From Desulfosporosinus sp. (GTDB lineage: Bacteria > Bacillota > Desulfitobacteriia > Desulfitobacteriales > Desulfitobacteriaceae), in assembly GCA_049302315.1 (NCBI GenBank), contig JBAQLX010000677.1, positions 11,425 to 75,424 on the forward strand: 64,000 nt of DNA, in the 5' to 3' direction. The translations under genes and the position numbers were made by a program. The notes under the pieces were generated by a model. The model worked only from the letters and a program-made list of their open reading frames with translations. It was not told the origin of the DNA and ran no database searches. Within the stretch, counting starts at the first letter, position 1. Each line of letters opens with the position of its first letter. This document shows positions 36,151 through 52,026 of this stretch, piece after piece.

Positions 36151-36158
36151 TTATGCTA

Positions 36159-36182
36159 AATTTAGGACTAAAGTCCTAAATT
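36159..36182. promoter_or_regulatory. operator-like perfect palindrome AATTTAGGACT-AA-AGTCCTAAATT
   Basis: 11-bp arms with a 2-bp spacer, 9 nt upstream of the XRE gene start, in a divergent intergenic region. Confidence 0.5.
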
Positions 36183-36876: not shown

Positions 36877-38249
36877 ACGAAGTAAAACCTGACATCATAG
36901 GCCTATTCTCGTCCACACTAGTCAAAGCCGGCCGCCTTGCCCTCCGGCACATCGGCAGGCAAAGTGACTCACATCCCGGGCGAATAATGCTCTCCTGGAA
37001 GCGGAATGACGTCTGTGTTGAGACGAAGGAACGCGGCAAGGATAATACATCAAAGGAGTACCCGCAGCTCGTCAGTAAGGGCTGGAACGGGCATAATCGA
37101 GTATTTAAGTACCGCATCCCAACCGGTCTAAAACACGACAAACTTATTAAGTCCATCAACGACATTGAATTTGATTTAAAGTCTGAAGTGCTGTTCAAGC
37201 TGCTGGAAAATGACAAAAAAGCTCACTTCTCCTTGACCGTCCTCTCGGGTCACCTTAAAGACCTTATCACGTACACGGACGAAGCGAATCATCTCAAAGA
37301 CAAAGGGTTATGGATACCGTTAGGATGGTCAAGGCGAGGATTGGAGCAATTAGACCTTACCTCCAATAACTCCCCTCACCTCATGATTGGCGGCGGGACA
37401 GGAGCAGGGAAATCCATTCTTGCCCGGTTAATCCTCACAACCCTGCACATCAAATACACCCGGGATGAGGTCAGGTTATGGCTGTGTGATCTCAAGCATG
37501 GCAACGACACCTCTATGCTGGGGGACGATCCTGTGCTGGTTGATAAGGTGATCGTAGGACCTGAAGCTGTGGCAAATACCATGGATGAGTTATCCGCAAT
37601 CATTGGGCAAAGGTATGAAATGTTCAAAACACACAAAGGATGCTCAGATATTAAGTCATTCAACAAGCTCTACCCAACGAAAAGAATGCCGCATATCATA
37701 TGTTTTGTTGACGAATTGACAAAGCTGGAAGGCAAGGAGTTTAGGGAGGCTCGGGAGAAAATGTCTAAGGTAACAGGCGAGGGTCGTGCATCCGGGGTGC
37801 ATATGATCATTAGTTGTCATCGGCCTACGGCTAACCTCGTTTCCGGCACTATGAAAAACAATATCCCTGCGGTCGTCGCGTTCCGGTGTAATCCGGTATC
37901 GGCTCGGGTGCTACTCGGAGAAGATGAATGGGAAAGCTCTATGATGATTGATAAGGACGTTGAGGGCCGGGCGTTATTCAAGTTTAAGGATGAAGTTTTG
38001 ATTCAAGTGCCGTACATTGATGACGAGATGGTAGGGAGTATCATGGCGGCCTATCAAAAGCCACAAAGGGCACAAGCGGAGTTAATAGACAAGATCATCA
38101 AGGCGACAAAAGAGCCTATAGATGAGGGGATAATAAAAAAGAGTAGGAATAGGCAGTTATGCGAACGACCAACCGAAGAAACCCGCTCGCAGCGCGCGAA
38201 ATTACGCCTGGTACAACCACTGGGCACGAAGGGTATCGCGAAGGAGTGA
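36873..38249 (+). CDS. FtsK/SpoIIIE-family DNA translocase
   Basis: Walker A 'GGGTGAGKS', Walker B 'ICFVDELTKL', 'ASGVHMIISCHRP'. Confidence 0.85.
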   Translation: MNEVKPDIIGLFSSTLVKAGRLALRHIGRQSDSHPGRIMLSWKRNDVCVETKERGKDNTSKEYPQLVSKGWNGHNRVFKYRIPTGLKHDKLIKSINDIEFDLKSEVLFKLLENDKKAHFSLTVLSGHLKDLITYTDEANHLKDKGLWIPLGWSRRGLEQLDLTSNNSPHLMIGGGTGAGKSILARLILTTLHIKYTRDEVRLWLCDLKHGNDTSMLGDDPVLVDKVIVGPEAVANTMDELSAIIGQRYEMFKTHKGCSDIKSFNKLYPTKRMPHIICFVDELTKLEGKEFREAREKMSKVTGEGRASGVHMIISCHRPTANLVSGTMKNNIPAVVAFRCNPVSARVLLGEDEWESSMMIDKDVEGRALFKFKDEVLIQVPYIDDEMVGSIMAAYQKPQRAQAELIDKIIKATKEPIDEGIIKKSRNRQLCERPTEETRSQRAKLRLVQPLGTKGIAKE

Positions 38250-38268
38250 GTGAAGGGGTGAACGAAGG

Positions 38269-38937
38269 GTGAACAAGCTACAGGATCAACTAAAAGGCAC
38301 AAACTGTGTCGCCTATGGACAAAGCAGGGATGAGTATATCGTTAAGCTAATCCAGTCCGGAACAGCCTTTACAAGACAACAAATTGAGCAAATCATAATC
38401 CCTAAACGCAAGTCGTCAAAACGCATTGCGCAGCACTCATTGACCAGGCTATGTAAACAGGAACGAATCAAGCAATGGAAACGAGCTCCACAGCTTCCGT
38501 CGATCTATTACGCTCGAAAGCCACGACAACTGGACCACGTTCTGCTGGTAAACGAAATATACTGCGCGTTGCTTGCCCAGAAAAAGTCTTGGCATGTTAT
38601 CGAGTGGAAATGGAATTACTTAATCCTGGGTGGCAAGGTTGTTGCCGACGCTATGGCCACTATTTACGCTGAGCCGGACCGCAAGGGCCGCCGCGTTGTG
38701 TTTATCGAGGTGGAGCGCAATCCCGGGAAGCGATTCGACAAGCCGGAACAGTATCAGAAGGTTTACGACGCCGATTGGGTCAATGAGGAATGGTCTGTCA
38801 TAAAAAACAATACTGCCATATTCCCTGCTATCCTGATAGTGACCGAAGAAAAGCCTACTATTAAAAGTGACCTCAATTTTATTGTTGCATCGATAGGCCA
38901 AGTGCAAAAAGATGTCTATGGATTATTAAGGAGGTAG
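38269..38937 (+). CDS. replication-relaxation (Replic_Relax) family protein
   Basis: N-terminal wHTH-like region, 'LDHVLLVNEIY', 'VVFIEVERN'; classic pairing with an FtsK-like gene. Confidence 0.65.
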   Translation: MNKLQDQLKGTNCVAYGQSRDEYIVKLIQSGTAFTRQQIEQIIIPKRKSSKRIAQHSLTRLCKQERIKQWKRAPQLPSIYYARKPRQLDHVLLVNEIYCALLAQKKSWHVIEWKWNYLILGGKVVADAMATIYAEPDRKGRRVVFIEVERNPGKRFDKPEQYQKVYDADWVNEEWSVIKNNTAIFPAILIVTEEKPTIKSDLNFIVASIGQVQKDVYGLLRR

Positions 38938-38939
38938 TT

Positions 38940-39167
38940 ATGGGGAAATTGGAAAAGACAGTCTCGAAGGCCACATATGGGATTCTCGGCCTCGCGATGA
39001 AACCGGTTTACGACCAAATGCGAAAAGAACGCAATGAGGAAGTACGAAGATGGAATAAGTCACTGAAACAAGCGGACGAGGATGCGATGATCAATGCCAT
39101 GCAGCCAAGAAGGTTTGATGTACACCAACCTTATGATTCAATTATCCACCAACACCACTTTTGGTAA
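38940..39167 (+). CDS. hypothetical protein
   Basis: ORF only. Confidence 0.5.
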   Translation: MGKLEKTVSKATYGILGLAMKPVYDQMRKERNEEVRRWNKSLKQADEDAMINAMQPRRFDVHQPYDSIIHQHHFW

Positions 39168-39245
39168 TTGTCGCAAAACCATTAATCCTGTCGCAAGGCA
39201 GGATTAAGCCATAATTTGTTGAAAACCTGAATGAAGTAAAGAGAG

Positions 39246-41012
39246 GTGGATAGCTTGAGAATCTTAATAAACAACAAATCACGTGTTTTTTTTATCGGCT
39301 TTATTATGATGTTTTTCTTGTTTTGTAATAGTAATCAAGTGCAGGCAGTAGGACAGGAGGGTGATTATACTTTTATAATAATTGATAACGGGACCTACAA
39401 TTCAATTGAAATAACTGAGTATACGGGCGGGGGTGGTAATGTTTCAATCCCAGGTATATTATTCAAACTACTTGTAACCAGCATCGGCGATAGCGCCTTT
39501 TTCTTCAAAACGATAACTAGCGTTAGTCTTCCAGGTACAATAACAAATATCGGAAACGATGCCTTTTCTCTTTGTAGACAATTAACAAGTATTACGCTCC
39601 CGGAAGGGTTAACGCATATCGGTAACTATGCCTTTGATCAATGTATTGGCTTAACCGGTATAAATATCCCAAAGAGTACAATGAGCATCGGCAATAGCGC
39701 ATTTATGGGTTGCAAATTGACCAGCATTACCCTTAGGTCACCAACAACAATAATATATGATAGCGCAAACACAATTCCAGTCACGACAACGATTATAGGA
39801 TATGACCCGTCTACCGCAAAAGATTATGCTACAAAATATAGCAGAACATTCGAAGCCATTAGCAACAACTCAGCCATAACATCGTCTATCTACACTATAA
39901 GTGGAACAGAGATCACAAACATACCATTTGGGACTTCTAAGGAAACCTTTTTAGCGAATCTGTCCAAAGGAGAAGATCATCAAACGTGGAATACGGTCAG
40001 TCTTAACGATCCCGTATTTAGTAACAATAAAATTATAGTTACCGCTCAAGATGGAACAACAACAAAATATACAACAAAGGTAGACACGATAAGCGAAACG
40101 CTGGTCTTAAGCGATCAATCAACTACTGGATTCAATGTGTCGATAAGCCCAGTGCTTGCCGGCCTAACAAAGGGGAATTTTGTTCTGAGGGACGATGAAG
40201 GCAACGTCGTTAAGATCAACTCAGCAGCAACGATAGATAATGGAGCAAATTACACAATCAGTGCCTTGTTAATTGCTGGAAAAACTTATACGGTAACAGC
40301 AATGAAAACAGATTGCGACTTTGGCTCACCTATATATTTAATTGTGCAATTATTAGCCAATCCCGTGATACAAATTGGGGGAAATCCGAATGATAGTAAC
40401 AGTTTAGGTATATTTATCGGACTGGACAACATTAAGGATTCAAGTGGAAATGTAATTGCTAACCAAAACATTGCTGAATATCAAATCGAAGTAGATTATG
40501 ATCCGGCTAAAGTGACAATACCCGATGCCATTAATGAAACAGGTTCAGGTCAATTTGCCAAGACAATTGACCCAACGGGTAAACTAGTAATCACTTATGC
40601 TTCAACAACCGGGGTAACAGGTTTCGCTAAACTATGCTTCCTTCCAATAATCTTAACGGGGTCTGCCCTTGATTTGACAAGCATACAGGTGAAGTATCTT
40701 AGCGTGATCGATACTAATCAAAATCAGATTAGTGTGGTGAGTATTCCTGATCTGGTATTCCAAAGAGGTAAGATCTTAAATGAAGGACCAGGAGCCTTGC
40801 CAAATATTAATGACGCAGTAGCTGGATTACAATACTTAGCTGGTTTAAAAGAGATAGGTTCAGAATCGGGCCAAATAAACGTGATAAACATGGCCTCAAT
40901 ACTTCAGCCCGAAGAGGGAGCTACCGGCATTAAGCCCAGCGTTAAAGATGTAATAGCTTTGATACAGAAGTTAGTTGGACTAAGAGATGATTCATTCCAA
41001 TTGATTCAATAG
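39246..41012 (+). CDS. secreted surface protein: signal peptide + BspA-type leucine-rich repeats + beta-rich (cohesin-like?) C-terminal region
   Basis: Signal peptide 'NNKSRVFFIGFIMMFFLFCNSNQVQA'; LRR units 'ITSVSLPGTITNIGNDAF / LTSITLPEGLTHIGNYAF / LTGINIPKSTMSIGNSAF'. The cohesin-like call is tentative. Confidence 0.75.
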   Translation: MDSLRILINNKSRVFFIGFIMMFFLFCNSNQVQAVGQEGDYTFIIIDNGTYNSIEITEYTGGGGNVSIPGILFKLLVTSIGDSAFFFKTITSVSLPGTITNIGNDAFSLCRQLTSITLPEGLTHIGNYAFDQCIGLTGINIPKSTMSIGNSAFMGCKLTSITLRSPTTIIYDSANTIPVTTTIIGYDPSTAKDYATKYSRTFEAISNNSAITSSIYTISGTEITNIPFGTSKETFLANLSKGEDHQTWNTVSLNDPVFSNNKIIVTAQDGTTTKYTTKVDTISETLVLSDQSTTGFNVSISPVLAGLTKGNFVLRDDEGNVVKINSAATIDNGANYTISALLIAGKTYTVTAMKTDCDFGSPIYLIVQLLANPVIQIGGNPNDSNSLGIFIGLDNIKDSSGNVIANQNIAEYQIEVDYDPAKVTIPDAINETGSGQFAKTIDPTGKLVITYASTTGVTGFAKLCFLPIILTGSALDLTSIQVKYLSVIDTNQNQISVVSIPDLVFQRGKILNEGPGALPNINDAVAGLQYLAGLKEIGSESGQINVINMASILQPEEGATGIKPSVKDVIALIQKLVGLRDDSFQLIQ

Positions 41013-41018
41013 CAACGA

Positions 41019-41055
41019 AGCCCCCCGGCACACCGCCGAGGGGCTATTTATTTTG
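41019..41055 (+). terminator. rho-independent terminator
   Basis: AGCCCCCCGGC-ACACC-GCCGAGGGGCT hairpin (one mismatch) followed by ATTTATTTT. Confidence 0.6.
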
Positions 41056-41127
41056 CATTATTTTGCAAAAATAATGCAAAAATACCTCAAAAAGGTGTTG
41101 ACTTTTTGCACGTTGTCGTGCTATAAT
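41048..41127 (+). promoter_or_regulatory. operator repeat cluster + near-consensus sigma-A promoter of the 41.2-48.1 kb operon
   Basis: TTATTTTGCA x2 (41048-41067), palindrome GCATTATTTT-GCA-AAAATAATGC (41055-41077), TGCAAAAAT x2. -35 TTGACT (41098-41103), 18-nt spacer with TGn, -10 TATAAT (41122-41127). Confidence 0.6.
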
Positions 41128-41165
41128 TAGTCATAAAGTTAAACAAGGAAAGCGAGGAAATAAAG

Positions 41166-41822
41166 ATGGCAAAGGCAACTGCAAGGATGACGGTAGATGA
41201 AATGATTAGAAAGTTCTGGTGCGAGTTAGCGGAAAAAGACGGCCAGCAAGTAATCCGAATTTCAGGGAAGCCGAGCAAAGCCCAAATGGAGCAATTGAAA
41301 GCCAGCAAGAACGAGATTATAGCCGAGCTGAAAAAGCGTGAAGCAGTAAAACAAGCTCGCGAAGCCACCGAAAAAGCAAAACTTGAAACCGAACTCGAAG
41401 GACTGAAAAACGGGACCATCCTTATTAGTCCCAGTTGGCACGATGGCGAATACCTCATGGGTTACGAAGTATACGGTCAGGCGGCCAAACTACTCGAAGA
41501 AATAGGAGCAGCCAAGTACGTAAGCGGCTGGGGAACACACGTATCAGAAAAGGTAATCAAAGCTCTTGGAAAAGAATTCACCTACCAGACAGCGGTCGAG
41601 CATATGAGGCCAGCCAAGGAAGCAGCCGAAGCCAAGAAAGCAGCAAAAGAAGCTGAACGTCAATCCAAATTTGATCAGGCCAGAGAAACAGGTAAAAAAG
41701 TATTGATCAGAAGCTGGGAAAGCGATTGCCACGATCCTGAAGAAGAATGCAATTTTGATATGAATTTCGAATACGCAATGCCGGATGGAAGTACGGCTCG
41801 TACATGGAATCACACTTGGTAG
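41166..41822 (+). CDS. hypothetical protein (coiled-coil rich)
   Basis: First ORF of the operon; no motif recognised. Confidence 0.6.
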   Translation: MAKATARMTVDEMIRKFWCELAEKDGQQVIRISGKPSKAQMEQLKASKNEIIAELKKREAVKQAREATEKAKLETELEGLKNGTILISPSWHDGEYLMGYEVYGQAAKLLEEIGAAKYVSGWGTHVSEKVIKALGKEFTYQTAVEHMRPAKEAAEAKKAAKEAERQSKFDQARETGKKVLIRSWESDCHDPEEECNFDMNFEYAMPDGSTARTWNHTW

Positions 41823-41881
41823 AAAGGTAGGCCAGCCGGGAGCCATGATACCCGGCAATAAATAAGGAGGAGAAATGCGAA

Positions 41882-42112
41882 ATGGCAAAATTAATTAACT
41901 ATACTAAAGGATTGGTCGAAAACTTTGGAGGGGATGACGTAATTATCGTTAATAAACTTCTCAATGATGGATTTTCTGAACAAATATATATCGGTGAAGC
42001 GAAATTAGCGCTTAATGACGAAAACTTTATAAGCCACCAAAATGAAGAGGTATTGACCATCACAGGTGGCGCAGGTGAATGTTTGTCTGTATTAATTGAT
42101 GGTACCCGCTAG
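41882..42112 (+). CDS. hypothetical protein
   Basis: ORF with AGGAGG RBS. Confidence 0.55.
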   Translation: MAKLINYTKGLVENFGGDDVIIVNKLLNDGFSEQIYIGEAKLALNDENFISHQNEEVLTITGGAGECLSVLIDGTR

Positions 42113-42184
42113 GCCAGAACGGAGCAGGCCCGTTCCTCCCTCTTCGGAGGGAGCCGCTCAAGGGTTGTGAAAGGAGGAAACCAC

Positions 42185-43348
42185 ATGGCTAAATACACAG
42201 TCACCCGCTCCTGCGGCCACGAAGAAACCGTGGCCCTTATTGGCAAAAACCGCGAATGGCGGCTGGAGCACGTCGAGACAAACAAGCTCTGCTCAGAGTG
42301 CTATCAGGAAGATTTAAAGCGTCGCCGCGAGGAAGCGAACAGGGAAGCCGCTGAAGCCGCACGAGACAACAACCTCCCTGTTCTCACGGGAACAGAGAAG
42401 CAGATCCCCTGGGCCGAGACGATACGCCAACGCATCATGTCCGACCTCGACGAAGTTATATATGAAACCCGCGGCAACAAGGGCCGCGATGAGCTTGCGA
42501 TCCAAGAAGCCTATCAAGCGATTAAGAACAAAGCAACCGCGCATTGGTGGATTGATCGCCGTTATATTAAGGGTGAATTTGATCTTGAGACGTTGCTTCG
42601 AAAGGAATACGAATCACTGCGCGTCAATGCAGCAGCTGCCCCCACAAACGAAGTCGCCACCGACACACTGGCCGAATCCACTGTCAGACCTGAGTCTCCC
42701 GTAACCGAAACAGTTGCCGAAATCCGTATTCTCGAGGACATACTCGAAATCAGATTCCCTGAACGCAGGGATGACTTCCGCGAACTTGTTAAGTCGGAGC
42801 TAAAAATGGTATGGTCCGATTATGCATGGAAGCGCAGGATTAATTTTAAGAACGGTACCATAGAAGACCGCGCCGCTGAGGCTGGGAATAGGCTCCTGCA
42901 CAATGGGTTCCCTATCCGGATATTTGATGCCGAGCTACGCGAGAAGGCAATCAACGCCAACTACAAGCCCGAATGCACACGCTGGATCATGGCGCGATCA
43001 GAAGGAAAATACGAAGGTTGGTTGATGATCTCGTGGTCGCGTGACGAAGATCTCTATCGCCGCGCTAAAGCGATCACAGGCGCGAAGTATGATAAGCCGA
43101 ACGTGGTAGTATCGCCCGAGCACTTTGCCGAGGTCCTCGACTTTGCAGAGATGTATAAGTTCGAAATATCGGACGGAGCTAGGGGGGTTGTGGCTAATGC
43201 CAAGGAAATCAGGGATAATTCTATTATTACCAGCGTTGCAGAGCCGAAGAAAAAGGATCGTGCCAACGTTACGAGCACACCGTCAGTGCTGGAAATACCC
43301 ACGGCGGTGGATATTGCGGATGAATTTAGAGATGAGGAGTTGGGCTGA
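42185..43348 (+). CDS. hypothetical protein with N-terminal zinc ribbon
   Basis: Start moved to ATG 42185 (AAGGAGG-N7); 'CGHE...CSECY'. Confidence 0.6.
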   Translation: MAKYTVTRSCGHEETVALIGKNREWRLEHVETNKLCSECYQEDLKRRREEANREAAEAARDNNLPVLTGTEKQIPWAETIRQRIMSDLDEVIYETRGNKGRDELAIQEAYQAIKNKATAHWWIDRRYIKGEFDLETLLRKEYESLRVNAAAAPTNEVATDTLAESTVRPESPVTETVAEIRILEDILEIRFPERRDDFRELVKSELKMVWSDYAWKRRINFKNGTIEDRAAEAGNRLLHNGFPIRIFDAELREKAINANYKPECTRWIMARSEGKYEGWLMISWSRDEDLYRRAKAITGAKYDKPNVVVSPEHFAEVLDFAEMYKFEISDGARGVVANAKEIRDNSIITSVAEPKKKDRANVTSTPSVLEIPTAVDIADEFRDEELG

Positions 43349-43663
43349 ATGAGAAAGTCGCTAGAAGACATTAAGCATATGGTCAAGGCCATTAGTTACC
43401 CCGGAGGTATCCCTGCAGATATTATTGCCCATCACGTTTACTTACTGGATGCTGGACATTCAATCCTCTGCGTATTAACTCAACATTGGGATGATGCCAC
43501 AAAAGGTGACCCTAATGGCTACGAGGTCCCGGTACCGGTCAAGTACGTACTTGAAAAGGGCTATAAAATTAGCGGTGACTTTATAGTCGTTGATGCTCCT
43601 TATGATTCGGATTTTGGATTAGATGTTCCCGATGAATATTACGAATATGAATATGGTGCGTAA
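43349..43663 (+). CDS. hypothetical protein
   Basis: ATG abuts the upstream TGA. Confidence 0.55.
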   Translation: MRKSLEDIKHMVKAISYPGGIPADIIAHHVYLLDAGHSILCVLTQHWDDATKGDPNGYEVPVPVKYVLEKGYKISGDFIVVDAPYDSDFGLDVPDEYYEYEYGA

Positions 43664-43665
43664 CA

Positions 43666-45078
43666 ATGAACCTGAAGACTGAGCTTATGCCCCATCAATT
43701 CCCTGCTGTTGAAAAATCAATCAGGTCTACTATTTTCGCGCTTTTTATGTCGATGGGAACCGGCAAGACAAGGACCACATTCGAGCTTGTTTACCGGCGC
43801 CTATCTAAGATTGACAAGGTAGTTTATTTCTGCCCTGTTTCGCTCAAGGAAACAGTCCGTCGGGAAATCTTGAAGCACACCGACTGTGAAGACTCCGACA
43901 TATACGTTTTCGGAGATAAAACCAGCGAACGCAACATTCCTCGCGCCCTCTGGTATATCATCGGCATCGAATCGATGAGCAGCAGCACGCGCATGGTCCT
44001 TGCTACAAACAAGCTCATCGCGGCCAAAACGTTTGTCATCCTTGACGAATCAAGTTATATCAAAGGTCACGACTCAAAACGTACGACACGCATCACGGCC
44101 ATGAGTGCGCGTTCAAGGTATCGCTTAATCTTAACGGGCACTCCACTCTCTCAAGGTGTTGTGGACCTGTACGCGCAAATGAGGTTTTTGTCGCCAAAGA
44201 TCCTTGGATATAACTCATTCTATTCCTTCGCCGCCAATCACCTTGAATACTCAGAGAAGTTCCCCGGTCGAATCGTGCGCAGCCATAATACCAAGTACCT
44301 AGCCGCCAAAACTAAGCCCTACGTCTATCAGATCACCAAGGAAGAATGCCTAGATCTACCCAAGAAGCTCTACGAGACGCGCTATTTTCACATGACAGAC
44401 GAGCAGGCGCATGAGTACCATCTTGCCAAAGAACAATTCCTCGAAGAGTTGGAACGCGATGACTTCAATTCGACATCCATTTTTCGTATGTTTACGGCAT
44501 TACAAGAGATTGTTTGTGGATTCTGGAATTATCGTACAAGAAAAGGATTCAAGCTATTCGAGTTTCGGCACCATCGGATAGAAACTTTTATGGATGTGGT
44601 AGCGGATATTCCTAATGACAAGAAAATTATTGTTTGGGCAAAATTTCAATATGATATACAAGGTATAGTCAGAGAACTAACAGATAAATATGGCGCGGAT
44701 TCTGTCGCGCAATTTCATGGGGAAATTAAGGAGAGAGATAGACCAAGGCAAGTAGCACTTTTCCGTGAGCAAGCTCGTTTCTTTGTCTCAACTCCAAGTT
44801 GTGGCGGCCATGGCTTAACCCTCAACGAGTCCCACTTTGTGATATTTTACAACAACGGATTTAAGTACAGCGAACGCTTACAGGCCGAAGACCGCGATCA
44901 TCGTATTGGACAAGAGCATGACGTAACCTACATCGACATCCACTGCTCGTGCAGTATCGACGATCGGATATCGAAAGCCTTAGCTACCAAGGAGGACGCG
45001 GCAACATCATTTCGCGAGGAAGTCGAAAAAACTCAGGGGGATAAAAACAGACTTAGGGAGTTGATAAAAAACCTATGA
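43666..45078 (+). CDS. SNF2-family helicase/translocase
   Basis: 'MGTGKTRT', 'ILDESSYIKG', 'LILTGTPLSQG', 'GGHGLTLNESHFVIFYN', 'QAEDRDHRIGQ'. Confidence 0.85.
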   Translation: MNLKTELMPHQFPAVEKSIRSTIFALFMSMGTGKTRTTFELVYRRLSKIDKVVYFCPVSLKETVRREILKHTDCEDSDIYVFGDKTSERNIPRALWYIIGIESMSSSTRMVLATNKLIAAKTFVILDESSYIKGHDSKRTTRITAMSARSRYRLILTGTPLSQGVVDLYAQMRFLSPKILGYNSFYSFAANHLEYSEKFPGRIVRSHNTKYLAAKTKPYVYQITKEECLDLPKKLYETRYFHMTDEQAHEYHLAKEQFLEELERDDFNSTSIFRMFTALQEIVCGFWNYRTRKGFKLFEFRHHRIETFMDVVADIPNDKKIIVWAKFQYDIQGIVRELTDKYGADSVAQFHGEIKERDRPRQVALFREQARFFVSTPSCGGHGLTLNESHFVIFYNNGFKYSERLQAEDRDHRIGQEHDVTYIDIHCSCSIDDRISKALATKEDAATSFREEVEKTQGDKNRLRELIKNL

Positions 45079-46370
45079 GCGGCAAAACATATCTCAAGCA
45101 AAACGTCTATGACGCTGCTAATGAACGAATAAAACTCGTTTTCGATGAATTTGAGAAAATCTGTATTTCGTTCTCTGCCGGCAAGGACAGCGGCGTTGTC
45201 CTGAATCTCGTACTAGATTACATGCGTAAAAACGGAATCACTAAAAAGATTGGCGTCCTACTCATCGATTTAGAGGGTCAGTATCAAGAGACTATCCAAC
45301 ACGCGCAAACTATGTACGGGGAAAATTCTGATCTCATTATTCCCTATTGGGTATGTCTACCATTAAACTTACGTAACGCAGTTTCGGTTTATCAGCCGTT
45401 CTGGTGCTGCTGGGAGCCAGGTCTTGAAGATAAATGGATTAGGCCATTTCCTGACTTCCCCGCCATCACTGATCAGGATTATTTCCCATTCTACCGCTAC
45501 CGCATGGAATTTGAAGAATTTGTTCCCGAATTTAGCAAGTGGTTTTCTGAGGGCAAAAAGACGGCGTGTCTAGTGGGGATTAGGTCTAACGAAAGCCTTA
45601 ATCGGTACAGGACCATAGTGAGCGATAGTAAAGAATCTTACAAGGGCAAGGGCTGGACCACTAAAATGTCCGATAATGTTTATAATGCTTACCCAATATA
45701 TGATTGGACCACAGAGGATATCTGGGCCGCAAATGGCAAAAACGGATGGCATTACAACAAGCTCTATGATCTATTTTACAAAGCTGGAATTGGTATCCAT
45801 GACATGCGGATCTGCCAACCCTATGGAGATGACCAGAGAATCAGCCTCGACATGTTCCGCGTCATTGAACCTGAAACGTGGGCAAAAGTTGTTAATCGTG
45901 TTTCGGGTGCAAACTTCGGGAATATTTATTGTGGCACCAAGGCGATCGGATACCGAAAGATCGATCTACCGGAAGGGCACACTTGGAAAAGCTATACTAA
46001 GCTCTTGCTATCTTCGCTTCCACCAGAGACCAGGGAAAACTACACTAGCCGTTTTATCAGGTTTATGAGATATTGGCACAAAAACGGTTGCGGATTACCT
46101 GATGACTATCTCGATCAATTACCCGCATCAGCTGTAATTACAGAGGATATTACGAATCGAGGTAAAAAGAATAAGAAGATCGTCAAGTACAAAAAGATTG
46201 AGGACAGCGTTGAGGGTAATATCGAAAGTAAAAAGTTCGCTCCGACTTGGCGAAGGATGGCTATGTGTATCTTGAAGAATGATCACCTATGTAAGGGTTT
46301 GTCGTTTGCTCAGACTAAACATCAAGCAGAGCGCCAACGTCAACTTATCGAGAAATACCGAAACCTATAA
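45075..46370 (+). CDS. IbrA-like PAPS-reductase-family protein (PP-loop N-domain + DUF3440-type C-region)
   Basis: 'NVYDAANERIKLVFDEFEKICISFSAGKDSGVVLNL', 'LIDLEGQY', 'YWVCLPLNLRNAVS..QPFWCCWEP'. Confidence 0.8.
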   Translation: MSGKTYLKQNVYDAANERIKLVFDEFEKICISFSAGKDSGVVLNLVLDYMRKNGITKKIGVLLIDLEGQYQETIQHAQTMYGENSDLIIPYWVCLPLNLRNAVSVYQPFWCCWEPGLEDKWIRPFPDFPAITDQDYFPFYRYRMEFEEFVPEFSKWFSEGKKTACLVGIRSNESLNRYRTIVSDSKESYKGKGWTTKMSDNVYNAYPIYDWTTEDIWAANGKNGWHYNKLYDLFYKAGIGIHDMRICQPYGDDQRISLDMFRVIEPETWAKVVNRVSGANFGNIYCGTKAIGYRKIDLPEGHTWKSYTKLLLSSLPPETRENYTSRFIRFMRYWHKNGCGLPDDYLDQLPASAVITEDITNRGKKNKKIVKYKKIEDSVEGNIESKKFAPTWRRMAMCILKNDHLCKGLSFAQTKHQAERQRQLIEKYRNL

Positions 46371-46382
46371 GGAGGGGTTGAT

Positions 46383-46790
46383 TTGAAAATTATACGGCGG
46401 ACCAATCAGGATAAAGATTTCTATGTACTACTTGGCCCATTCCTAGCTCGGCGTGATATTGAGCGTGAAATAGGCTACCGAATCTATGACGATGACGGCA
46501 AAATGTGGCTAATTGCTAAGGATGCTGAGCTGATTATTGGATTTTGTTATCTATGGGAAAAGACGGGATCTCGTTATCAGATCGGGAGCTGCTATGTGCT
46601 TGAAAGTTATCGACAACGAGGAGTATTTCGTAATCTACTTGCCAATGCAACAAGGAATATCAATAGTAACGTTACCCTGACTACTAAAAATAAGAATCTG
46701 AAAGAGATGCTCATAAAGGAAGGATTTACCACTAAGCAACAAAAGGGCAGCTTCACGGAATATGTAAAGGGGTACGGAGTTAATGAATAA
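46383..46790 (+). CDS. GNAT-family N-acetyltransferase
   Basis: 'CYVLESYRQRGVFRNLLANA' (R/Q-x-x-G-x-G/A acetyl-CoA loop). Confidence 0.7.
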   Translation: MKIIRRTNQDKDFYVLLGPFLARRDIEREIGYRIYDDDGKMWLIAKDAELIIGFCYLWEKTGSRYQIGSCYVLESYRQRGVFRNLLANATRNINSNVTLTTKNKNLKEMLIKEGFTTKQQKGSFTEYVKGYGVNE

Positions 46791-47418
46791 TCAGATCAGG
46801 GATTATATTGATAATATCGTTCATTCCCTTGCGCAGATGCCAGAAGCCGAAAGAATAACTGTTTTAAACGAAATCAGGTCAAGGCTTCACGAGGTCAGTC
46901 CCTTCAAAAATGAACCGGTTGATTGTGTCCTTTGGGTACCAGGCGATACTGTCCAGGCGAATAATTATAACCCAAATAGCGTCGCTCCCCCGGAAATGAA
47001 ATTACTCGAAATAAGTATTGCGACAGATGGCTTTACTCAGCCAATTGTCGTAGTGAAAGAGAAGTTAGATGATAGGGAACACACCGTGGCCGATGGTTTC
47101 CATAGGAATCGAGTTGGGAAAGAGAGTTCAAGAGTAAAACTGAGGATTAAGGGTTATTTGCCTATAACCGTGATCGGAGACGAACATATGCCCATGGCCG
47201 ACCGCATGGCCTCAACTATCCGGCACAACCGCGCTAGGGGGTCCCACAACATCGACCTAATGAGTAATATTGTAGCCGAACTAGTAGAAATGGGAAAGTC
47301 TGACGGTTGGATTGCTAAGCATCTTGGAATGGATGCTGATGAAGTATTAAGACTGAAGCAAATAACCGGGTTGGCTGCGCTATTTAAAGATCGTAAATAC
47401 TCGCGCTCGTGGGTATAG
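46783..47418 (+). CDS. IbrB-like ParB/sulfiredoxin-domain protein
   Basis: 'ANNYNPNSVAPPEMKLLEISIATDGFTQPIVV', 'VADGFHRNRV', 'TIRHNRARGSH'. Confidence 0.75.
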   Translation: MNNQIRDYIDNIVHSLAQMPEAERITVLNEIRSRLHEVSPFKNEPVDCVLWVPGDTVQANNYNPNSVAPPEMKLLEISIATDGFTQPIVVVKEKLDDREHTVADGFHRNRVGKESSRVKLRIKGYLPITVIGDEHMPMADRMASTIRHNRARGSHNIDLMSNIVAELVEMGKSDGWIAKHLGMDADEVLRLKQITGLAALFKDRKYSRSWV

Positions 47419-47434
47419 AAAGGGGCCCTTAATA

Positions 47435-47935
47435 ATGATCGAGCTAAACTACATCGAAATCCAAGCCTTCCGCAAAATCGGCTATGGCTGTCTTTTCTCC
47501 TTTGCCTCGTTAGACGGCGCAAACTGGCAGACCGATCTCCTGATCCATCTCTCCACTAAAGAGATAAAATCACGCGAAATGAAAACCGCTAAAATCGAGA
47601 TTAGCGTAGAGTTGCGCGAGATAAACGGTTTCCCTCTTGTCCGAATGCCGATCACAATTCACGACTACCCTGGTGATCCGTGCAAGATGGAGGTATTTTT
47701 TAATCTTATCCGCGAAGATCATATAAAATGTGCCGCATCGCTCACGGCGCAGAAAACTGTACGGATTCATTTTTTCGGAGATAACTTGAAGTATTCCCAC
47801 TCAAAGGAGATCAGGTGGTACCTACAAAATGACGTGGCCAACATACTAATTAAGGCCGCACCTATGGCGCAGAGTAAGAAAGATGCCGATTTTGAACTGG
47901 CAAAAGCGAAATTTATGGAGGAAAACGAGCTATGA
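47435..47935 (+). CDS. hypothetical protein
   Basis: ORF only. Confidence 0.55.
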   Translation: MIELNYIEIQAFRKIGYGCLFSFASLDGANWQTDLLIHLSTKEIKSREMKTAKIEISVELREINGFPLVRMPITIHDYPGDPCKMEVFFNLIREDHIKCAASLTAQKTVRIHFFGDNLKYSHSKEIRWYLQNDVANILIKAAPMAQSKKDADFELAKAKFMEENEL

Positions 47936-48132
47936 TAAAGGAAAGCAAAATCCTCTTCTCTGACGTCCTCTCCTGCCCAGAGGCGGCTAAGATGTGGGGC
48001 TTTTCGGAAGACAAAGTGAAGCGATACTGCAGGGAAGGCAAATTTCTCCCGACTGAGGCGCGGCAAACGGGTAAGTATTGGATCTTAACACGGCAAGGAA
48101 TGGGGCGGGTATTTGGGCCCCGACCTGAATAA
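47932..48132 (+). CDS. small HTH (excisionase/MerR-like) DNA-binding protein
   Basis: 'LSCPEAAKMWGFSEDKVKRYCREGKF'; ATGA overlap with the upstream gene. Confidence 0.55.
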   Translation: MIKESKILFSDVLSCPEAAKMWGFSEDKVKRYCREGKFLPTEARQTGKYWILTRQGMGRVFGPRPE

Positions 48133-48144
48133 GTTTATAAACGC

Positions 48145-48180
48145 AAAAAAAGCCTCCCTCCAATTAAGGAGAGAGGCTTT
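48145..48180. terminator. bidirectional rho-independent terminator (module boundary)
   Basis: AAAAAAA-GCCTCCCTCC-AATTAA-GGAGAGAGGC-TTT between convergent genes. Confidence 0.65.
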
Positions 48181-48201
48181 CGCTATGGTGGCTGGTACGG
48201 C

Positions 48202-51122: not shown

Positions 51123-51198
51123 GCAGAAACACCGGAACGGCGTCTCTATGCCCATTGTAAGGCGTCGCTCCGGTAAAAACAAGAGGAGCGAAAAGAGA

Positions 51199-52026
51199 AT
51201 GAGATATATAGAAGAGTTTTTGACCGCCCGCAAGCTGGACGGCCTTGCTGTTGGGACCATCGACCAGTATGAACGTGAACTAAAAACGCTAGCCAGATAC
51301 TTGGACAAGCCCACCATCGAGGCCACAACTAATGACCTGAGAAACTACTTAATCCAATTCGCGCACCTCGCGCAGAGAACTACTAATCGTAAAATATCAA
51401 CCGCCAAGGCATTTTACACTTGGTTAGTGCAGGAAGAGTATATCGAACGTAATCCAACTAAGAAGATCAGAACGCCGAAGGATCCGGCCTCGCTCCCACG
51501 TAACCTAAACAAGGAGGATGTCGAGCTACTGCGCTGGTATCCTAAGTCACCTCGCAATCAAGCCATAATAGAGCTGTTGGTGTCCAGTGGGATGAGAGTT
51601 GGCGAGCTGTCGCGCCTGAATAGAAATGACTTAAACATGGCAAACAGGCAAATCCGAGTCGTGGGCAAGGGCAACAAAGAAAGGCTTGTGTTTTTCGGGC
51701 ACATCGCGAAGTTCTGCCTGACCAGCTACCTGAGCGAGAGGACCGATAATAACCCAGCTTTGTTTATAAACCGCTATGGGGAGCGCCTGCGGATCCGGAG
51801 CATCGAAGCGCAGCTCAAGGCCCATGCAAAGCAGGCTGGGATCACTAACAAGGTCACGCCGCATATGCTCCGGCACGCGTTCGCTTCGGGCCTGTACGAG
51901 CAGGGCGCAGATATTGATTTTATCGCTCGACTGCTGGGTCACGAATCGACGGATACAACGAGAAAATATACGCACATCAACAGCGTGGCGATGGCCAGAA
52001 TGTTCGATAAGTTTTTGGTTAGCTAA
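51199..52026 (+). CDS. XerC/XerD-like tyrosine recombinase
   Basis: Start moved to ATG 51199; 'SGMRVGELSRLN', 'HMLRHAFAS', 'LLGHESTDTTRKYTH' (R-H-R-H-Y set). Confidence 0.85.
   Translation: MRYIEEFLTARKLDGLAVGTIDQYERELKTLARYLDKPTIEATTNDLRNYLIQFAHLAQRTTNRKISTAKAFYTWLVQEEYIERNPTKKIRTPKDPASLPRNLNKEDVELLRWYPKSPRNQAIIELLVSSGMRVGELSRLNRNDLNMANRQIRVVGKGNKERLVFFGHIAKFCLTSYLSERTDNNPALFINRYGERLRIRSIEAQLKAHAKQAGITNKVTPHMLRHAFASGLYEQGADIDFIARLLGHESTDTTRKYTHINSVAMARMFDKFLVS

What the first reader, a model, noticed from the sequence alone, without database searches (positions are those of the whole stretch)
41048..48180. Ten-gene translationally coupled operon: SNF2 helicase + IbrA-like PAPS reductase + GNAT + IbrB-like ParB/Srx + five unknowns (candidate undescribed DNA-modification / anti-defence / regulatory system)
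Seen in the sequence. A near-consensus promoter (TTGACT-18-TATAAT with TGn) is preceded and overlapped by a cluster of TTTTGCA/TGCAAAA direct and inverted repeats, including a perfect 10-bp-arm palindrome at 41055-41077. Ten plus-strand ORFs follow with almost no intergenic space: ATGA overlaps at 45075 and 47932, an 8-nt overlap at 46783, and abutting genes at 43348/43349 and 43663/43666. The unit ends at a bidirectional terminator.

Established knowledge. PAPS-reductase/PP-loop domains are the core enzymes of DNA backbone-modification systems (DndC, SspD) and occur in BrxP of type 4 BREX. ParB/Srx-like proteins partner DNA-modification enzymes (DndB, DpdB). SNF2 translocases occur in Dpd and other defence loci. 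The named pair IbrA/IbrB is known only genetically, as activators of prophage eib genes in E. coli, with no mechanism.

Inference. The quartet plus five unknown proteins (218, 76, 387, 104 and 166 aa) and a terminal HTH protein looks like one multi-enzyme nucleic-acid-targeting machine carried as operator-controlled phage cargo. I do not recognise this gene combination as a named system.
Basis: partly seen in the sequence, partly recalled or inferred. Interest (0 to 1): 0.8.

Follow-up and report, generated by a model that had tools for sequence, protein, structure and literature searches.

The report
Phage IbrAB–SNF2 module with ribozyme

Summary
One strong promoter with a palindromic operator, ten + strand ORFs with the stated overlaps, and a terminal hairpin are all present.

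The "ten-gene machine" reading is only partly right. Comparative genomics resolves four modules:
- p1-p2, which carry their own promoter and operator.
- A twister-sister self-cleaving ribozyme (42101-42170, Rfam RF02681) between p2 and p3.
- A strictly co-linear core, p3 - SNF2 - IbrA - IbrB, found in 63 loci from at least ten bacterial phyla and in cultured phages.
- A p9 - HTH tail, seen in only a handful of relatives.

The GNAT is a recurrent accessory (27/63 loci, twice fused to IbrA). It never co-occurs with an alternative accessory set, an N6/N4 DNA methylase plus a 291-aa protein. IbrA keeps an intact PP-loop and four near-invariant cysteines. IbrB is a ParB/Srx domain plus an HTH.

No known defence or modification system matches (Dnd, Ssp, BREX-4, Dpd, Zorya). 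The papers I could search gave no mechanism for IbrAB.

My best reading is a DNA-tracking covalent-modification module carried by phages (confidence about 0.4). The rivals are a transcription co-activator and a prophage defence. Related loci carry twister-sister, twister, pistol and hammerhead ribozymes, which places this system among the unexplained "ribozyme-associated phage genes".

The parts
41019..41045 (+). Terminator hairpin of the upstream BspA-LRR gene; it insulates the unit from upstream transcription
   Evidence: Inverted repeat AGCCCCCCGGC/GCCGAGGGGCT followed by a T-rich run
41048..41121 (+). Operator-like repeat cluster: tandem TTATTTTGCA x2, a perfect palindrome with 14-nt arms (41051-41081), and the GCACGTTGTCGTGC palindrome (41108-41121) inside the promoter spacer
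   Evidence: GCACG..CGT-type motifs recur at the p1 promoters of L089 and in the L091 remnant. They are absent from the more distant relatives examined (L003/L007, L004, L012, L093, L095, L101), which have different promoter regions and palindromes
41098..41127 (+). Sigma-70-type promoter TTGACT-18-TGnTATAAT
   Evidence: 11/12 match with TG, the best site in the region
41166..41822 (+). p1, 218 aa, unknown function. Separable module: it always has its own terminator and promoter
   Evidence: No Pfam match; C-terminus matches phrog_33472. Homologues in 12 loci, upstream of p3 or, in L089/L090, downstream of the HTH gene
41882..42112 (+). p2, 76 aa, unknown function. Found only in this window and its identical Logan contig
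   Evidence: Its stop codon lies inside the ribozyme's conserved 5' strand
42101..42170 (+). Twister-sister self-cleaving ribozyme (three-stem form). Predicted cleavage at the C-A step 42159|42160 would leave a 25-nt 5'-OH leader with the RBS in front of the p3 ATG
   Evidence: Rfam RF02681, 36.7 bits (gathering score 34), E 1.9e-6 locally, full model. Nine related copies in the eight closest loci show 15/22 pairs with compensatory changes, 0/500 shuffles as high. The cleavage position is by analogy with PMC5660989
42185..43348 (+). p3, 387 aa. Core component: N-terminal Cys/His Zn-ribbon-like motif (C10, H12, C36, C39), long helices with a GTEKQIxWAE motif, and a C-terminal alpha/beta domain. 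Probable adaptor of the SNF2 motor
   Evidence: 304 homologues, none with a Pfam domain. AF2 model pLDDT 85; no significant PDB match; BFVD matches to viral unknowns, including a 'HepA-related protein'. Every full-length homologue with enough flank is followed by SNF2-IbrA-IbrB
43349..43663 (+). p4, 104 aa, unknown function. Recurrent but positionally mobile accessory
   Evidence: Nine loci. It lies after p3 here and in L089/L144, and after IbrB in L003/L005/L007/L085
43666..45078 (+). Minimal SNF2-family ATPase/translocase, 470 aa (core component)
   Evidence: PF00176 73.9 bits, PF00271, phrog_62 1.7e-100. Walker A GxGKT, D127-E128 and QxxxRxxRxGQ are conserved
45075..46370 (+). IbrA-like PP-loop enzyme, PAPS_reduct + DUF3440, 431 aa (core component)
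   Evidence: Invariant SFSxGKDS (32-39) and near-invariant C94, C112, C247, C406. The AF2 model's N-terminal half matches CysH, CysD, FMN adenylyltransferase, TilS, NcsA and LarE
46383..46790 (+). GNAT acyltransferase, 135 aa, TTG start with AGGAGG RBS. Recurrent accessory
   Evidence: PF00583 29.5 bits. Present in 27/63 systems and fused to IbrA in L102 and L104. RBS
46783..47418 (+). IbrB-like ParB/Srx-fold protein with a C-terminal HTH, 211 aa (core component)
   Evidence: phrog_2159 3.8e-72; ParB_N weak. Invariant DGFHR (104-108) and RHNxARG (147-153); HTH at 163-191
47435..47935 (+). p9, 166 aa, unknown function. Fills a variable slot 3' of IbrB
   Evidence: 15 relatives only. Other systems have the unrelated families c13 or c35 in the same slot. 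Intact in the remnant locus L091/L092
47932..48132 (+). p10, 66 aa, HTH_59 (excisionase/MerR-like) DNA-binding protein, ATGA-coupled to p9. Candidate regulator
   Evidence: PF20038 5.6e-18. Follows p9 in L089/L090 as well
48148..48181 (.). Shared hairpin terminator between the unit and the convergent lysis genes
   Evidence: 14-bp stem. Strong T-run on the - strand; only TTT on the + strand

Best explanation
The region is a phage accessory transcription unit lying between attP and the lysis cassette. It is assembled from separable modules.

Shown:
- A repressible sigma-70 promoter drives p1-p2.
- A twister-sister ribozyme motif sits between p2 and p3.
- Downstream lies a conserved, co-linear four-gene core, p3 - SNF2 - IbrA - IbrB, which recurs in phages and prophages of many phyla.
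- The core carries mutually exclusive accessory enzymes (GNAT, or N6/N4 DNA methylase plus a 291-aa protein) and a variable small protein in the 3' slot.

Inferred mechanism:
- The ribozyme cleaves the primary transcript. The p3-to-p10 mRNA then starts with a 5'-OH 25 nt before the p3 start codon, which uncouples its fate from p1-p2.
- IbrB (ParB/Srx NTP-binding fold plus HTH) binds or clamps DNA.
- The minimal SNF2 ATPase, with p3 as its adaptor, translocates along DNA or opens it.
- IbrA uses its PP-loop to adenylate a target group on DNA. Its conserved cysteines may hold an Fe-S cluster or a persulfide, allowing substitution by sulfur or nitrogen.
- The GNAT (or, in other variants, the methylase) adds or completes a group transfer.
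- The result is a covalent mark on phage (or host) DNA that changes how nucleases or transcription factors read it. That would make the system phage self-protection (anti-restriction) or epigenetic control.
For: Anatomy.

Core conservation:
- Starting from IbrA: adjacent IbrB in 77/80 viral loci and SNF2 directly upstream in about 35/80.
- Starting from p3: all 63 loci with p3, SNF2 and IbrA are co-linear. They span Bacillota, Desulfobacterota, Nitrospirae, Chloroflexi, Bacteroidales, CPR, Alpha-, Beta- and Gammaproteobacteria, Synergistales, Lentisphaerota and Streptomyces.

Catalytic competence: PP-loop, four near-invariant Cys, SNF2 motifs and the IbrB DGFHR motif are conserved.

Group-transfer theme:
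- GNAT in 27/63 loci, including IbrA-GNAT fusions.
- DNA methylase PF01555 in 13/63 loci, never together with GNAT.
- IbrB also matches phrog_498, annotated DNA methyltransferase.

Fold: IbrA resembles adenylyl-transferring and sulfur-transferring PP-loop enzymes. The same two superfamilies (PP-loop DndC and ParB-type DndB) work together in DNA phosphorothioation (PMC10853773).

Phage-borne, including virulent phages:
- S. thermophilus Moineauvirus carries SNF2-IbrA-IbrB.
- The system sits right after the lysis cassette in five separate contexts: this window, L003/L007, S. thermophilus Moineauvirus, the Pelotomaculum prophage and C. scindens phiCs5676-1.
- This is the same prophage-end region where hammerhead ribozymes flank the anti-restriction gene ardA (PMC3088659).

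Sub-module shuffling: L086 has SNF2 at 87% identity but IbrA at 32%; L093 has SNF2 at 66% but IbrA at 88%.

Ribozyme.
Against: - No modification has been measured, and no target is known.
- The only genetic evidence on this family that I know of (Sandt et al. 2002, known to me only through PMC7649339's citation) shows activation of prophage eib gene expression, not DNA modification.
- No cysteine desulfurase, nuclease or nickase domain recurs in the 63 neighbourhoods.
- 21/63 systems have neither GNAT nor methylase, so these accessories are dispensable.
- IbrA's closest structural matches act on small molecules (PAPS, sulfate, FMN) rather than nucleic acids.
- Whether the four cysteines cluster in 3D could not be checked, because no coordinates are returned. 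The loops around C247 and C406 (248-252, 404-415) have pLDDT below 50.
- Ribozyme cleavage is predicted, not shown, and the Rfam score is only 2.7 bits above the gathering threshold.
Confidence: 0.4

Rival explanations
1. Transcription or chromatin regulator. IbrB acts as a ParB/KorB-like DNA clamp with an HTH. Together with IbrA and the SNF2 remodeller it activates, or relieves silencing of, phage or host genes, as IbrA/IbrB do genetically for the prophage eib genes in E. coli. No DNA chemistry is involved.
For: - The family name and the only genetic data point to co-activation of prophage genes (cited in PMC7649339; annotations).
- IbrB has an HTH.
- The E. coli K-12 paralogues ybdNM are a regulated operon, and YbdM is predicted to be a transcription factor (PMC9068703).
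- The system lies next to late and lysis genes.
- Bacterial SNF2 proteins such as RapA act on RNA polymerase (my own knowledge). One structural match of p3 is a viral protein annotated 'HepA-related'.
Against: - IbrA keeps a full PP-loop and four near-invariant cysteines over thousands of homologues, which is unexpected for a purely structural co-activator.
- The recurrent GNAT (including fusions) and DNA-methylase accessories point to group transfer.
- The system is present in strictly virulent phages and inside early replication modules.
Confidence: 0.25
2. Prophage-encoded anti-phage defence or superinfection exclusion. The module is expressed from the lysogen and senses or attacks incoming DNA. 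The SNF2 motor plays the role it has in Zorya, DISARM and Dpd, and the variable 3' proteins (p9/c13/c35) act as effector or specificity factor.
For: - Moron-like layout: own promoter and operator, flanked by terminators, antisense to the late genes, at the prophage end.
- The SNF2 protein matches ZorD, DpdE and DrmD profiles in part.
- Cassette shuffling and a hypervariable slot are typical of conflict systems.
- p9 is retained alone, under the same promoter, in a decayed remnant.
Against: - No PADLOC system-level match and no partner genes of any known system.
- No recognisable nuclease or toxin domain.
- The trio is carried by virulent S. thermophilus phages and by many phages inside replication modules.
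- In most relatives it is co-directional with late genes and has no promoter of its own.
Confidence: 0.15
3. RNA (tRNA or mRNA) modification module. IbrA acts like TilS, TtcA or NcsA on an RNA base, with the GNAT acting like TmcA, to retune translation during infection.
For: Foldseek matches include TilS, NcsA and other tRNA-modifying PP-loop enzymes. GNAT-plus-helicase is the architecture of tRNA acetyltransferase TmcA (my own knowledge).
Against: The partners are typical double-stranded-DNA proteins (ParB/Srx plus HTH, SNF2). The alternative accessory is an N6/N4 DNA methylase. The TilS alignments are long but poor (rmsd about 17 A).
Confidence: 0.07
4. Auxiliary metabolic gene. The 'PAPS reductase' supplies sulfite for host sulfur assimilation, as phage PAPS reductases are usually annotated.
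For: The Pfam PAPS_reduct hit and a CysH-like fold. The literature routinely files these genes under host metabolism.
Against: Scores against the CysH, PAPS-reductase and CysD equivalog models are far below their cut-offs: 22.8-31.5 bits against 154-254. IbrA has an extra DUF3440 half and obligate ParB/SNF2 partners. No other sulfur-assimilation genes were noticed in the window.
Confidence: 0.03
5. One reading: all ten proteins form one obligatory multi-enzyme machine under one operator.
For: Tight gene packing and a single strong promoter in this window. The identical ten-gene set occurs in one other sample.
Against: - p2 is unique to this phage. p1, p4, p9 and p10 are absent or repositioned in most relatives.
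- The operator is not conserved.
- A ribozyme separates p1-p2 from the rest.
- p9-p10 persists without the enzymes.
Confidence: 0.05

Closest known systems
IbrA/IbrB (E. coli ECOR-9 genetic island; K-12 paralogues YbdN/YbdM; 'co-activators of prophage gene expression')
   Same: Same two families, in the same order and adjacent. IbrA is PAPS_reduct + DUF3440; IbrB is ParB-like. Window IbrA and IbrB are 49% and 58% identical to proteins annotated IbrA and IbrB in S. thermophilus phages.
   Different: The E. coli pair and E. coli phage PhiR5_2 have no SNF2 or p3 partner. Here the pair is embedded in a four-gene core with GNAT. The named function (eib activation) cannot apply in this host.
Dnd / Ssp DNA phosphorothioation systems (DndB + DndC; SspB/C/D) and BREX type 4 (BrxP)
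   Same: They combine a PP-loop/PAPS-reductase-fold enzyme bearing conserved cysteines with a ParB-superfamily protein and a DNA-dependent ATPase (PMC10853773, PMC12839542). Weak local hits to DndC and BrxP.
   Different: IbrA is not a DndC, SspD or BrxP orthologue (24.7 bits against a cut-off of 290). There is no DndA/D/E, SspA/B/C, PglZ or BrxC/L. The ATPase is SNF2 rather than an ABC/SMC-like ATPase (DndD-type). The system is phage-borne and has no restriction partner.
ParB-domain / DNA-methyltransferase fusions of phages and plasmids (phrog_498 type)
   Same: A ParB/Srx DNA-binding module coupled to a DNA-modifying enzyme. IbrB hits phrog_498 (5.5e-8). In 13/63 systems an N6/N4 methylase directly follows IbrB.
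   Different: The proteins are separate, and the window's variant has a GNAT and no methylase. PP-loop and SNF2 partners are not part of the ParB-MTase fusions (my own knowledge).
Ribozyme-associated phage gene neighbourhoods (hammerhead, twister, twister-sister, pistol, hatchet)
   Same: Self-cleaving ribozymes of several classes punctuate short gene blocks in prophage accessory regions. The reason is unknown (PMC6765202, PMC4604425, PMC3088659). Here a twister-sister sits between p2 and p3, and other classes occupy equivalent places in relatives.
   Different: The published descriptions I could read do not name IbrA, IbrB, SNF2 or p3 as the associated genes. I could not obtain the gene lists of Roth 2014 or Weinberg 2015.
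SNF2 helicases of defence systems (ZorD, DrmD, DpdE, BrxH)
   Same: They share the SNF2 ATPase core.
   Different: Only the motor domain aligns. The window protein is a minimal 470-aa SNF2 with no nuclease or other domains and none of the partner genes. Its best match is the general phage helicase family phrog_62.

Membership tests
IbrA family (PAPS_reduct + DUF3440) | PAPS_reduct domain followed by DUF3440, above the Pfam gathering scores | tested here: met
   PF01507 53.4 bits (cut-off 22.5); PF11922 192.5 bits (cut-off 25); phrog_2302 1.7e-103
IbrA family (PAPS_reduct + DUF3440) | Intact PP-loop SxGxDS | tested here: met
   S32-F-S-A-G-K-D-S39; S34, G36, K37, D38 and S39 are at least 95% conserved in 80 homologues
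IbrB family (ParB/Srx-like partner of IbrA) | ParB N-terminal-type domain encoded next to IbrA | tested here: met
   phrog_2159 3.8e-72. Pfam ParB_N scores only 17.7 bits, below its cut-off of 26.3. Adjacent to IbrA in 77/80 viral loci. 58% identical to the annotated IbrB of phage CHPC1148
IbrA/IbrB function | Activation of prophage gene expression (eib) | not testable with these tools
   Genetic phenotype only; the original paper is not held
Dnd DNA phosphorothioation | DndC equivalog | tested here: not met
   TIGR03183 24.7 bits against a cut-off of 290.4, matching only residues 163-229. PADLOC DndC 3.4e-7, local match only
Dnd DNA phosphorothioation | DndA, DndD and DndE partners in the cluster | tested here: not met
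   None of the ten proteins matches them in PADLOC or NCBIfam
BREX type 4 | BrxP with DUF4007, plus PglZ, BrxC and BrxL | tested here: not met
   Only a 29-residue BrxP match at the PP-loop (1.1e-5). No PglZ, BrxC or BrxL
Dpd 7-deazaguanine system | DpdA (TGT-like) plus DpdB, with DpdE and related helicases | tested here: not met
   Only generic SNF2 similarity to DpdE. NCBIfam DpdE 15.1 bits against a cut-off of 500. No DpdA
Zorya | ZorA/ZorB motor plus ZorC and ZorD | tested here: not met
   ZorD profiles align only to the SNF2 core (48.4 bits against a cut-off of 1500). No ZorA, ZorB or ZorC
Assimilatory PAPS/APS reductase (CysH) | Equivalog-level match to CysH models | tested here: not met
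   NF002537 31.5 bits against 154; TIGR02057 22.8 bits against 254
SNF2 family ATPase | SNF2-related N-lobe plus Helicase_C, with Walker A, motif II (DE) and motif VI arginines | tested here: met
   PF00176 73.9 bits; PF00271 38.8 bits. G33, K34, D127, E128, R410, R413 and Q416 are at least 95% conserved
GNAT acyltransferase | Acetyltransf_1 above the gathering score | tested here: met
   29.5 bits against 20.7. The acyl donor and acceptor are unknown
Twister-sister ribozyme (RF02681) | Covariance-model score at or above the Rfam gathering score, over the full model | tested here: met
   36.7 bits against 34, model positions 1-81. Relatives score 54-59 bits
Twister-sister ribozyme (RF02681) | Conserved core nucleotides and stems supported by covariation | tested here: met
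   Nine copies: 90.9% of cells paired against 69% in shuffles; 15/22 pairs have changes on both sides; a clear peak against the slid controls. The alignment was fitted to the model, which favours the structure
Twister-sister ribozyme (RF02681) | Site-specific self-cleavage | not testable with these tools
   Needs in vitro transcription, or mapping of 5'-OH and 2',3'-cyclic-phosphate ends

The most novel reading that the evidence does not exclude
p3 - SNF2 - IbrA - IbrB, with interchangeable GNAT or methylase add-ons, is a new and very widespread phage DNA-modification system, making either a base hypermodification or a backbone/base thiolation by a PP-loop enzyme unrelated to DndC. It is also one of the long-unexplained gene sets that attract twister, twister-sister, pistol and hammerhead ribozymes. 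That would give both IbrAB (unexplained since 2002) and the bacterial self-cleaving ribozymes a testable biological role.
Probability: 0.25. Interest if true: 0.85.

Novelty: new variant of a known kind. Interest (0 to 1): 0.62.

Why it matters
IbrA-like proteins are abundant. They are routinely annotated as sulfur-metabolism genes or 'co-activators', yet the papers I could search gave no mechanism.

This analysis shows that a large subset belongs to a fixed four-gene module with a dedicated SNF2 motor, a conserved unknown partner, and alternative GNAT or methylase add-ons. That turns a vague annotation into a defined system that can be cloned and tested.

The system is present in dairy S. thermophilus phages and in gut Clostridia phages, so a new DNA mark or anti-restriction route would have practical consequences.

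The ribozyme link also offers a concrete model locus for asking why self-cleaving ribozymes cluster in phage accessory regions.

Tried and rejected
- **Known defence or modification systems.** PADLOC and NCBIfam scans of all ten proteins gave only generic SNF2 and weak PP-loop hits.
- **Sequence search of the PDB** with IbrA, IbrB, p3, p9 and p1 found nothing useful. An HTH repeat match confirmed the HTH in IbrB.
- **Foldseek of the p3 model.** No PDB match at E below 0.001; weak XPB/TFIIH N-terminal hits (TM about 0.15) were judged noise. BFVD returned only uncharacterised viral proteins.
- **Foldseek of IbrA.** Only the generic PP-loop half matched; nothing matched DUF3440.
- **Operator conservation.** The TTTTGCA palindrome is absent from more distant relatives, and the window-wide motif count is at chance. 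It is lineage-specific and tied to p1.
- **p9 versus c13 and c35.** Tested by hhalign whether p9 is homologous to the other proteins that occupy the 3' slot. It is not (probability 3% or less).
- **p9-p10 as an independent module.** The 'solo' locus L091/L092 turned out to be a decayed remnant with the p1 promoter fused to p9, so it is only weak evidence.
- **Literature.** Ten searches found no mechanistic paper on IbrAB, DUF3440 or ybdNM. Sandt 2002, Maindola 2014 and Weinberg 2015 are not held.
- **Control for ribozymes.** Seven IbrAB-only viral loci (138 kb) contained none. The control is small.
- **Base composition.** No anomaly over the operon.

Full report
**Observation**

The ten + strand ORFs exist exactly as described: p1 41166-41822, p2 41882-42112, p3 42185-43348, p4 43349-43663, SNF2 43666-45078, IbrA-like 45075-46370, GNAT 46383-46790, IbrB-like 46783-47418, p9 47435-47935 and HTH 47932-48132. 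The stated overlaps and abutments follow from these coordinates.

The promoter TTGACT-18-TATAAT with an upstream TG (41098-41127) matches 11 of 12 positions and is the only site of that quality in the region. It is preceded by the terminator of the upstream BspA-type LRR gene (41019-41045).

The promoter is overlapped by a repeat cluster:
- two tandem copies of TTATTTTGCA;
- a second palindrome, GCACGTTGTCGTGC (41108-41121), in the spacer.

TTTTGCA is not over-represented in the window as a whole (14 copies against 16.9 expected), but five copies lie within 60 bp.

The hairpin at 48148-48181 has a strong T-run only on the - strand.

Domain assignments are confirmed: SNF2-rel_dom plus Helicase_C; PAPS_reduct plus DUF3440; Acetyltransf_1; phrog_2159 'ParB-like' (Pfam ParB_N below its threshold); and HTH_59. 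p1, p2, p3, p4 and p9 have no Pfam family.

**Context**

The window is one phage genome. Its own proteins are recorded on a 77.5-kb contig.
- 1-33 kb (- strand): early and replication genes (primase-helicase, SbcCD-like protein, an intein-containing C5 methylase, a second PAPS-reductase-like protein).
- 34480-35664: a tyrosine integrase.
- 35681-35937: an attP-like site, with two copies of TTGACCCTCTTTTGACCCACTTATTTT around a tRNA 3' fragment.
- 36.9-41 kb: FtsK, Replic_Relax and the LRR protein.
- 41-48.2 kb: the unit under study.
- 48.2-64 kb (- strand): convergent lysis and tail genes.

Sources. The unit therefore lies in the cargo region between attP and the lysis cassette. A 12.3-kb contig from another sample carries the identical FtsK-to-HTH block. 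It starts inside the tRNA core and ends in the terminator hairpin.

**What is conserved**

*Starting from IbrA.* 412 IMG/VR contigs encode relatives. In the best 80:
- IbrB is adjacent in 77;
- an SNF2 gene lies directly upstream in about 35;
- a p3 homologue lies upstream of SNF2 in 13;
- p1 and p4 are present in only a few loci, and GNAT in about ten once a profile search is used;
- p2, p9 and p10 are absent.

Another 37 loci lack SNF2. They place IbrA-IbrB, with a 129-aa unknown, inside early regions containing DnaB, NinG, YopX and PD-(D/E)XK genes.

*Starting from p3, the reciprocal test.* An alignment of 80 p3 homologues recovered 170 genome loci, of which the best 80 were kept. Every locus with a full-length p3 and enough flanking sequence has p3 - SNF2 - IbrA - IbrB in that order on one strand. 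Hits to only the N-terminal 126 residues of p3 have no such neighbours.

With profile searches over all fetched loci, 63 loci carry the co-linear core. They come from Bacillota (Desulfosporosinus, Pelotomaculum, Aneurinibacillus, Paratissierella, Hathewaya, Clostridium, Lachnospiraceae), Desulfobacterota, Nitrospirae, Chloroflexi, Bacteroidales, Paceibacterota, Alpha-, Beta- and Gammaproteobacteria, Synergistales, Lentisphaerota and Streptomyces. Neighbouring genes are integrases, terminase, portal and holin, which indicates prophages.

Cultured phages carry it too:
- C. scindens phiCs5676-1 has p3 - helicase - PAPS reductase - ParB-like directly after its endolysin.
- A Pelotomaculum prophage has the same arrangement after amidase and holin.
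- Virulent S. thermophilus Moineauvirus phages have a 412-aa SNF2 protein annotated 'hypothetical', then IbrA and IbrB, after the lysis genes.

**Accessories**

| Accessory | Loci (of 63) | Notes |
|---|---|---|
| GNAT | 27 | Before or after IbrA; fused to IbrA's C-terminus in Aneurinibacillus (572 aa) and Paratissierella (569 aa; Pfam Acetyltransf_1 above threshold) |
| N6/N4 DNA methylase after IbrB | 13 | Accompanies a shorter IbrA (about 372 aa) |
| 291-aa unknown before IbrA | 14 | Same subtype as the methylase |
| GNAT together with methylase or the 291-aa protein | 0 | Mutually exclusive |
| None of these | 21 | |

In 23 loci the slot after IbrB or the methylase holds a 140-190-aa protein of family p9, c13 or c35. 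p9 is not detectably related to c13 or c35; c13 and c35 show only a weak possible link.

Sub-modules recombine. L086 shares SNF2 at 87% and p9 at 78% identity with the window, but its IbrA is only 32% identical. The Desulfosporosinus locus L093 shares IbrA at 88% but SNF2 at 66%.

p1 always has its own terminator and promoter, and in L089/L090 it lies downstream of the HTH gene. The 'solo' p9 locus L091/L092 is a decayed remnant in which the p1 promoter region is joined to p9, followed by a truncated p10 and an LRR fragment. The window's TTTTGCA operator is absent from more distant relatives, which have other palindromes over their promoters.

**The ribozyme**

An Rfam scan of the window gave a single hit: a full-length twister-sister ribozyme at 42101-42170 (36.7 bits, gathering score 34). 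It fills the gap between p2 and p3. The p2 stop codon lies in the ribozyme's conserved ACCCGCUAGG strand. Its 3' strand, GCUCAAGGGUU, runs directly into the p3 RBS and the ATG at 42185, which argues for the ATG rather than the GTG at 42167 as the start.

By analogy with the solved structures, cleavage occurs at the C-A step (PMC5660989). That places it at 42159|42160, leaving a 25-nt 5'-OH leader.

Ribozymes in relatives at Rfam gathering scores:
- twister-sister in L086 and twice in L089;
- twister-P5 in L003;
- pistol in L012;
- two type II hammerheads in L100 and one in L108;
- three twister-P5 copies just downstream of the system in L105.

A covariance model built from four copies found further twister-sister-like elements in L094, L003, L004, L012 and L005.

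Across nine copies, 15 of 22 pairs show changes on both sides. 90.9% of cells are paired against 69% in shuffles (0/500 shuffles as high), with a sharp maximum against the slid controls. That alignment was fitted to the model, which favours the structure.

Each copy ends 10-25 nt before an RBS. In L003 and L089, ribozymes flank single small genes. Seven IbrAB-only viral loci (138 kb) had no ribozymes.

This matches the published but unexplained association of self-cleaving ribozymes with phage genes (PMC6765202, PMC4604425). It also matches the observation that hammerheads flank short gene blocks, for example the anti-restriction gene ardA between tail and integrase genes (PMC3088659).

**Proteins**

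*IbrA.* The PP-loop SFSxGKDS and four cysteines (C94, C112, C247, C406) are nearly invariant. In the AF2 model (pLDDT 80.5), the N-terminal half matches CysH, CysD, FMN adenylyltransferase, TilS, NcsA and LarE. These enzymes attack the ATP alpha-phosphate and often transfer sulfur. DUF3440 has no structural match. The loops next to C247 and C406 (residues 248-252 and 404-415) are the least confident parts of the model, as might be expected of cofactor-binding or mobile catalytic loops. This is suggestive only, because no coordinates could be inspected.

*IbrB.* The invariant motifs are NYNPN, DGFHR and RHNxARG, followed by an HTH.

*SNF2.* It keeps Walker A, the motif II D-E pair and the motif VI arginines.

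*p3.* The model has pLDDT 85. It shows an N-terminal Cys/His motif, long helices and a very confident C-terminal alpha/beta domain, with no significant PDB match.

**Interpretation**

Shown:
- a conserved four-gene phage system with alternative group-transfer accessories;
- intact catalytic motifs;
- no membership in Dnd, Ssp, BREX-4, Dpd or Zorya;
- a ribozyme motif separating it from p1-p2.

Inferred: a DNA-tracking modification machine, in which IbrB loads on DNA, SNF2 with p3 provides the motor, IbrA adenylates (and possibly thiolates), and GNAT or the methylase acts as an add-on. The closest analogy is the DndB/DndC pairing in phosphorothioation (PMC10853773).

The main rival is the co-activator function suggested by the E. 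coli genetics. Prophage defence, RNA modification and sulfur metabolism are less likely, for the reasons listed under the rival explanations.

In the papers I could search I found no description of this module or of a mechanism for IbrAB. Phage PAPS reductases are generally filed there as metabolic genes.

**Verdict**

The region also contains an overlooked ribozyme.

Novelty is a new variant of a known kind (the IbrAB / PP-loop plus ParB family). Interest is 0.62.

Noticed in passing
window 42101-42170 (+): Twister-sister self-cleaving ribozyme (RF02681, 36.7 bits) in the p2-p3 gap. It was the only Rfam hit in the 64-kb window. It overlaps the p2 stop codon and ends 15 nt before the p3 start.
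   Followed up: yes
L003 2838-2911 and 3191-3244; L012 3632-3697 and 4007-4081; L086 3592-3666; L089 3097-3170 and 3374-3448; L094 6044-6119; L100 5716-5781 and 6134-6204; L105 7519-8509; L108 2148-2220: Four classes of self-cleaving ribozyme (twister-sister, twister-P5, pistol, hammerhead II) occur on the system's strand near the p3-SNF2-IbrA-IbrB core in relatives. They sometimes flank single small genes, and each twister-sister(-like) copy ends just before an RBS.
   Followed up: partly
window 25338-26585 (-): A second PAPS_reduct/PP-loop protein (415 aa, phrog_424, no DUF3440) in the phage early region. The phage therefore carries two different PAPS-reductase-like genes, as C. clostridioforme prophage LM41 phi14 is reported to do.
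   Followed up: partly
window 24931-25317 (-): A phage-encoded protein with a Spo0A C-terminal (DNA-binding) domain (PF08769, 9.5e-22). It may interfere with host sporulation control.
   Followed up: no
window 21446-24604 (-): A C5 cytosine DNA methylase of 1052 aa, interrupted by an intein (Hint_2 plus a LAGLIDADG_3 homing endonuclease).
   Followed up: no
window 35681-35937: An attP-like site next to the integrase: two copies of TTGACCCTCTTTTGACCCACTTATTTT flank a tRNA 3' fragment (35808-35862). There is no complete tRNA in the window. A Logan contig of the same element begins inside this core.
   Followed up: partly
window 36873-41012 (+): FtsK/SpoIIIE, a Replic_Relax protein and a 588-aa BspA-type LRR surface protein lie between attP and the operon. 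A divergent small-HTH switch with the perfect palindrome AATTTAGGACTAAAGTCCTAAATT lies at 36158-36181. This may be a captured mobilisable element.
   Followed up: no
window 51148-52026 (+): A XerC/D-like tyrosine recombinase sits inside the lysis/tail region on the opposite strand. An integrase occupies the same place in relatives L086-L088.
   Followed up: no
L091/L092 9850-11080: A decayed chromosomal remnant in a spore-forming Bacillota genome: the p1-type promoter and operator are fused directly to an intact p9, followed by a truncated HTH_59 gene and an LRR fragment. p9 alone has been kept.
   Followed up: partly
L102 12542-14260; L104 12594-14303: IbrA-GNAT fusion proteins (572 and 569 aa) in Aneurinibacillus aneurinilyticus and Paratissierella segnis.
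   Followed up: yes
window 15202-19113 (-) and 12545-13912 (-): A 1303-aa protein matching both SbcC-like and SbcD-like families, and a second SF2/SWI2-SNF2-type helicase, in the replication module. Both are separate from the SNF2 of the finding.
   Followed up: no
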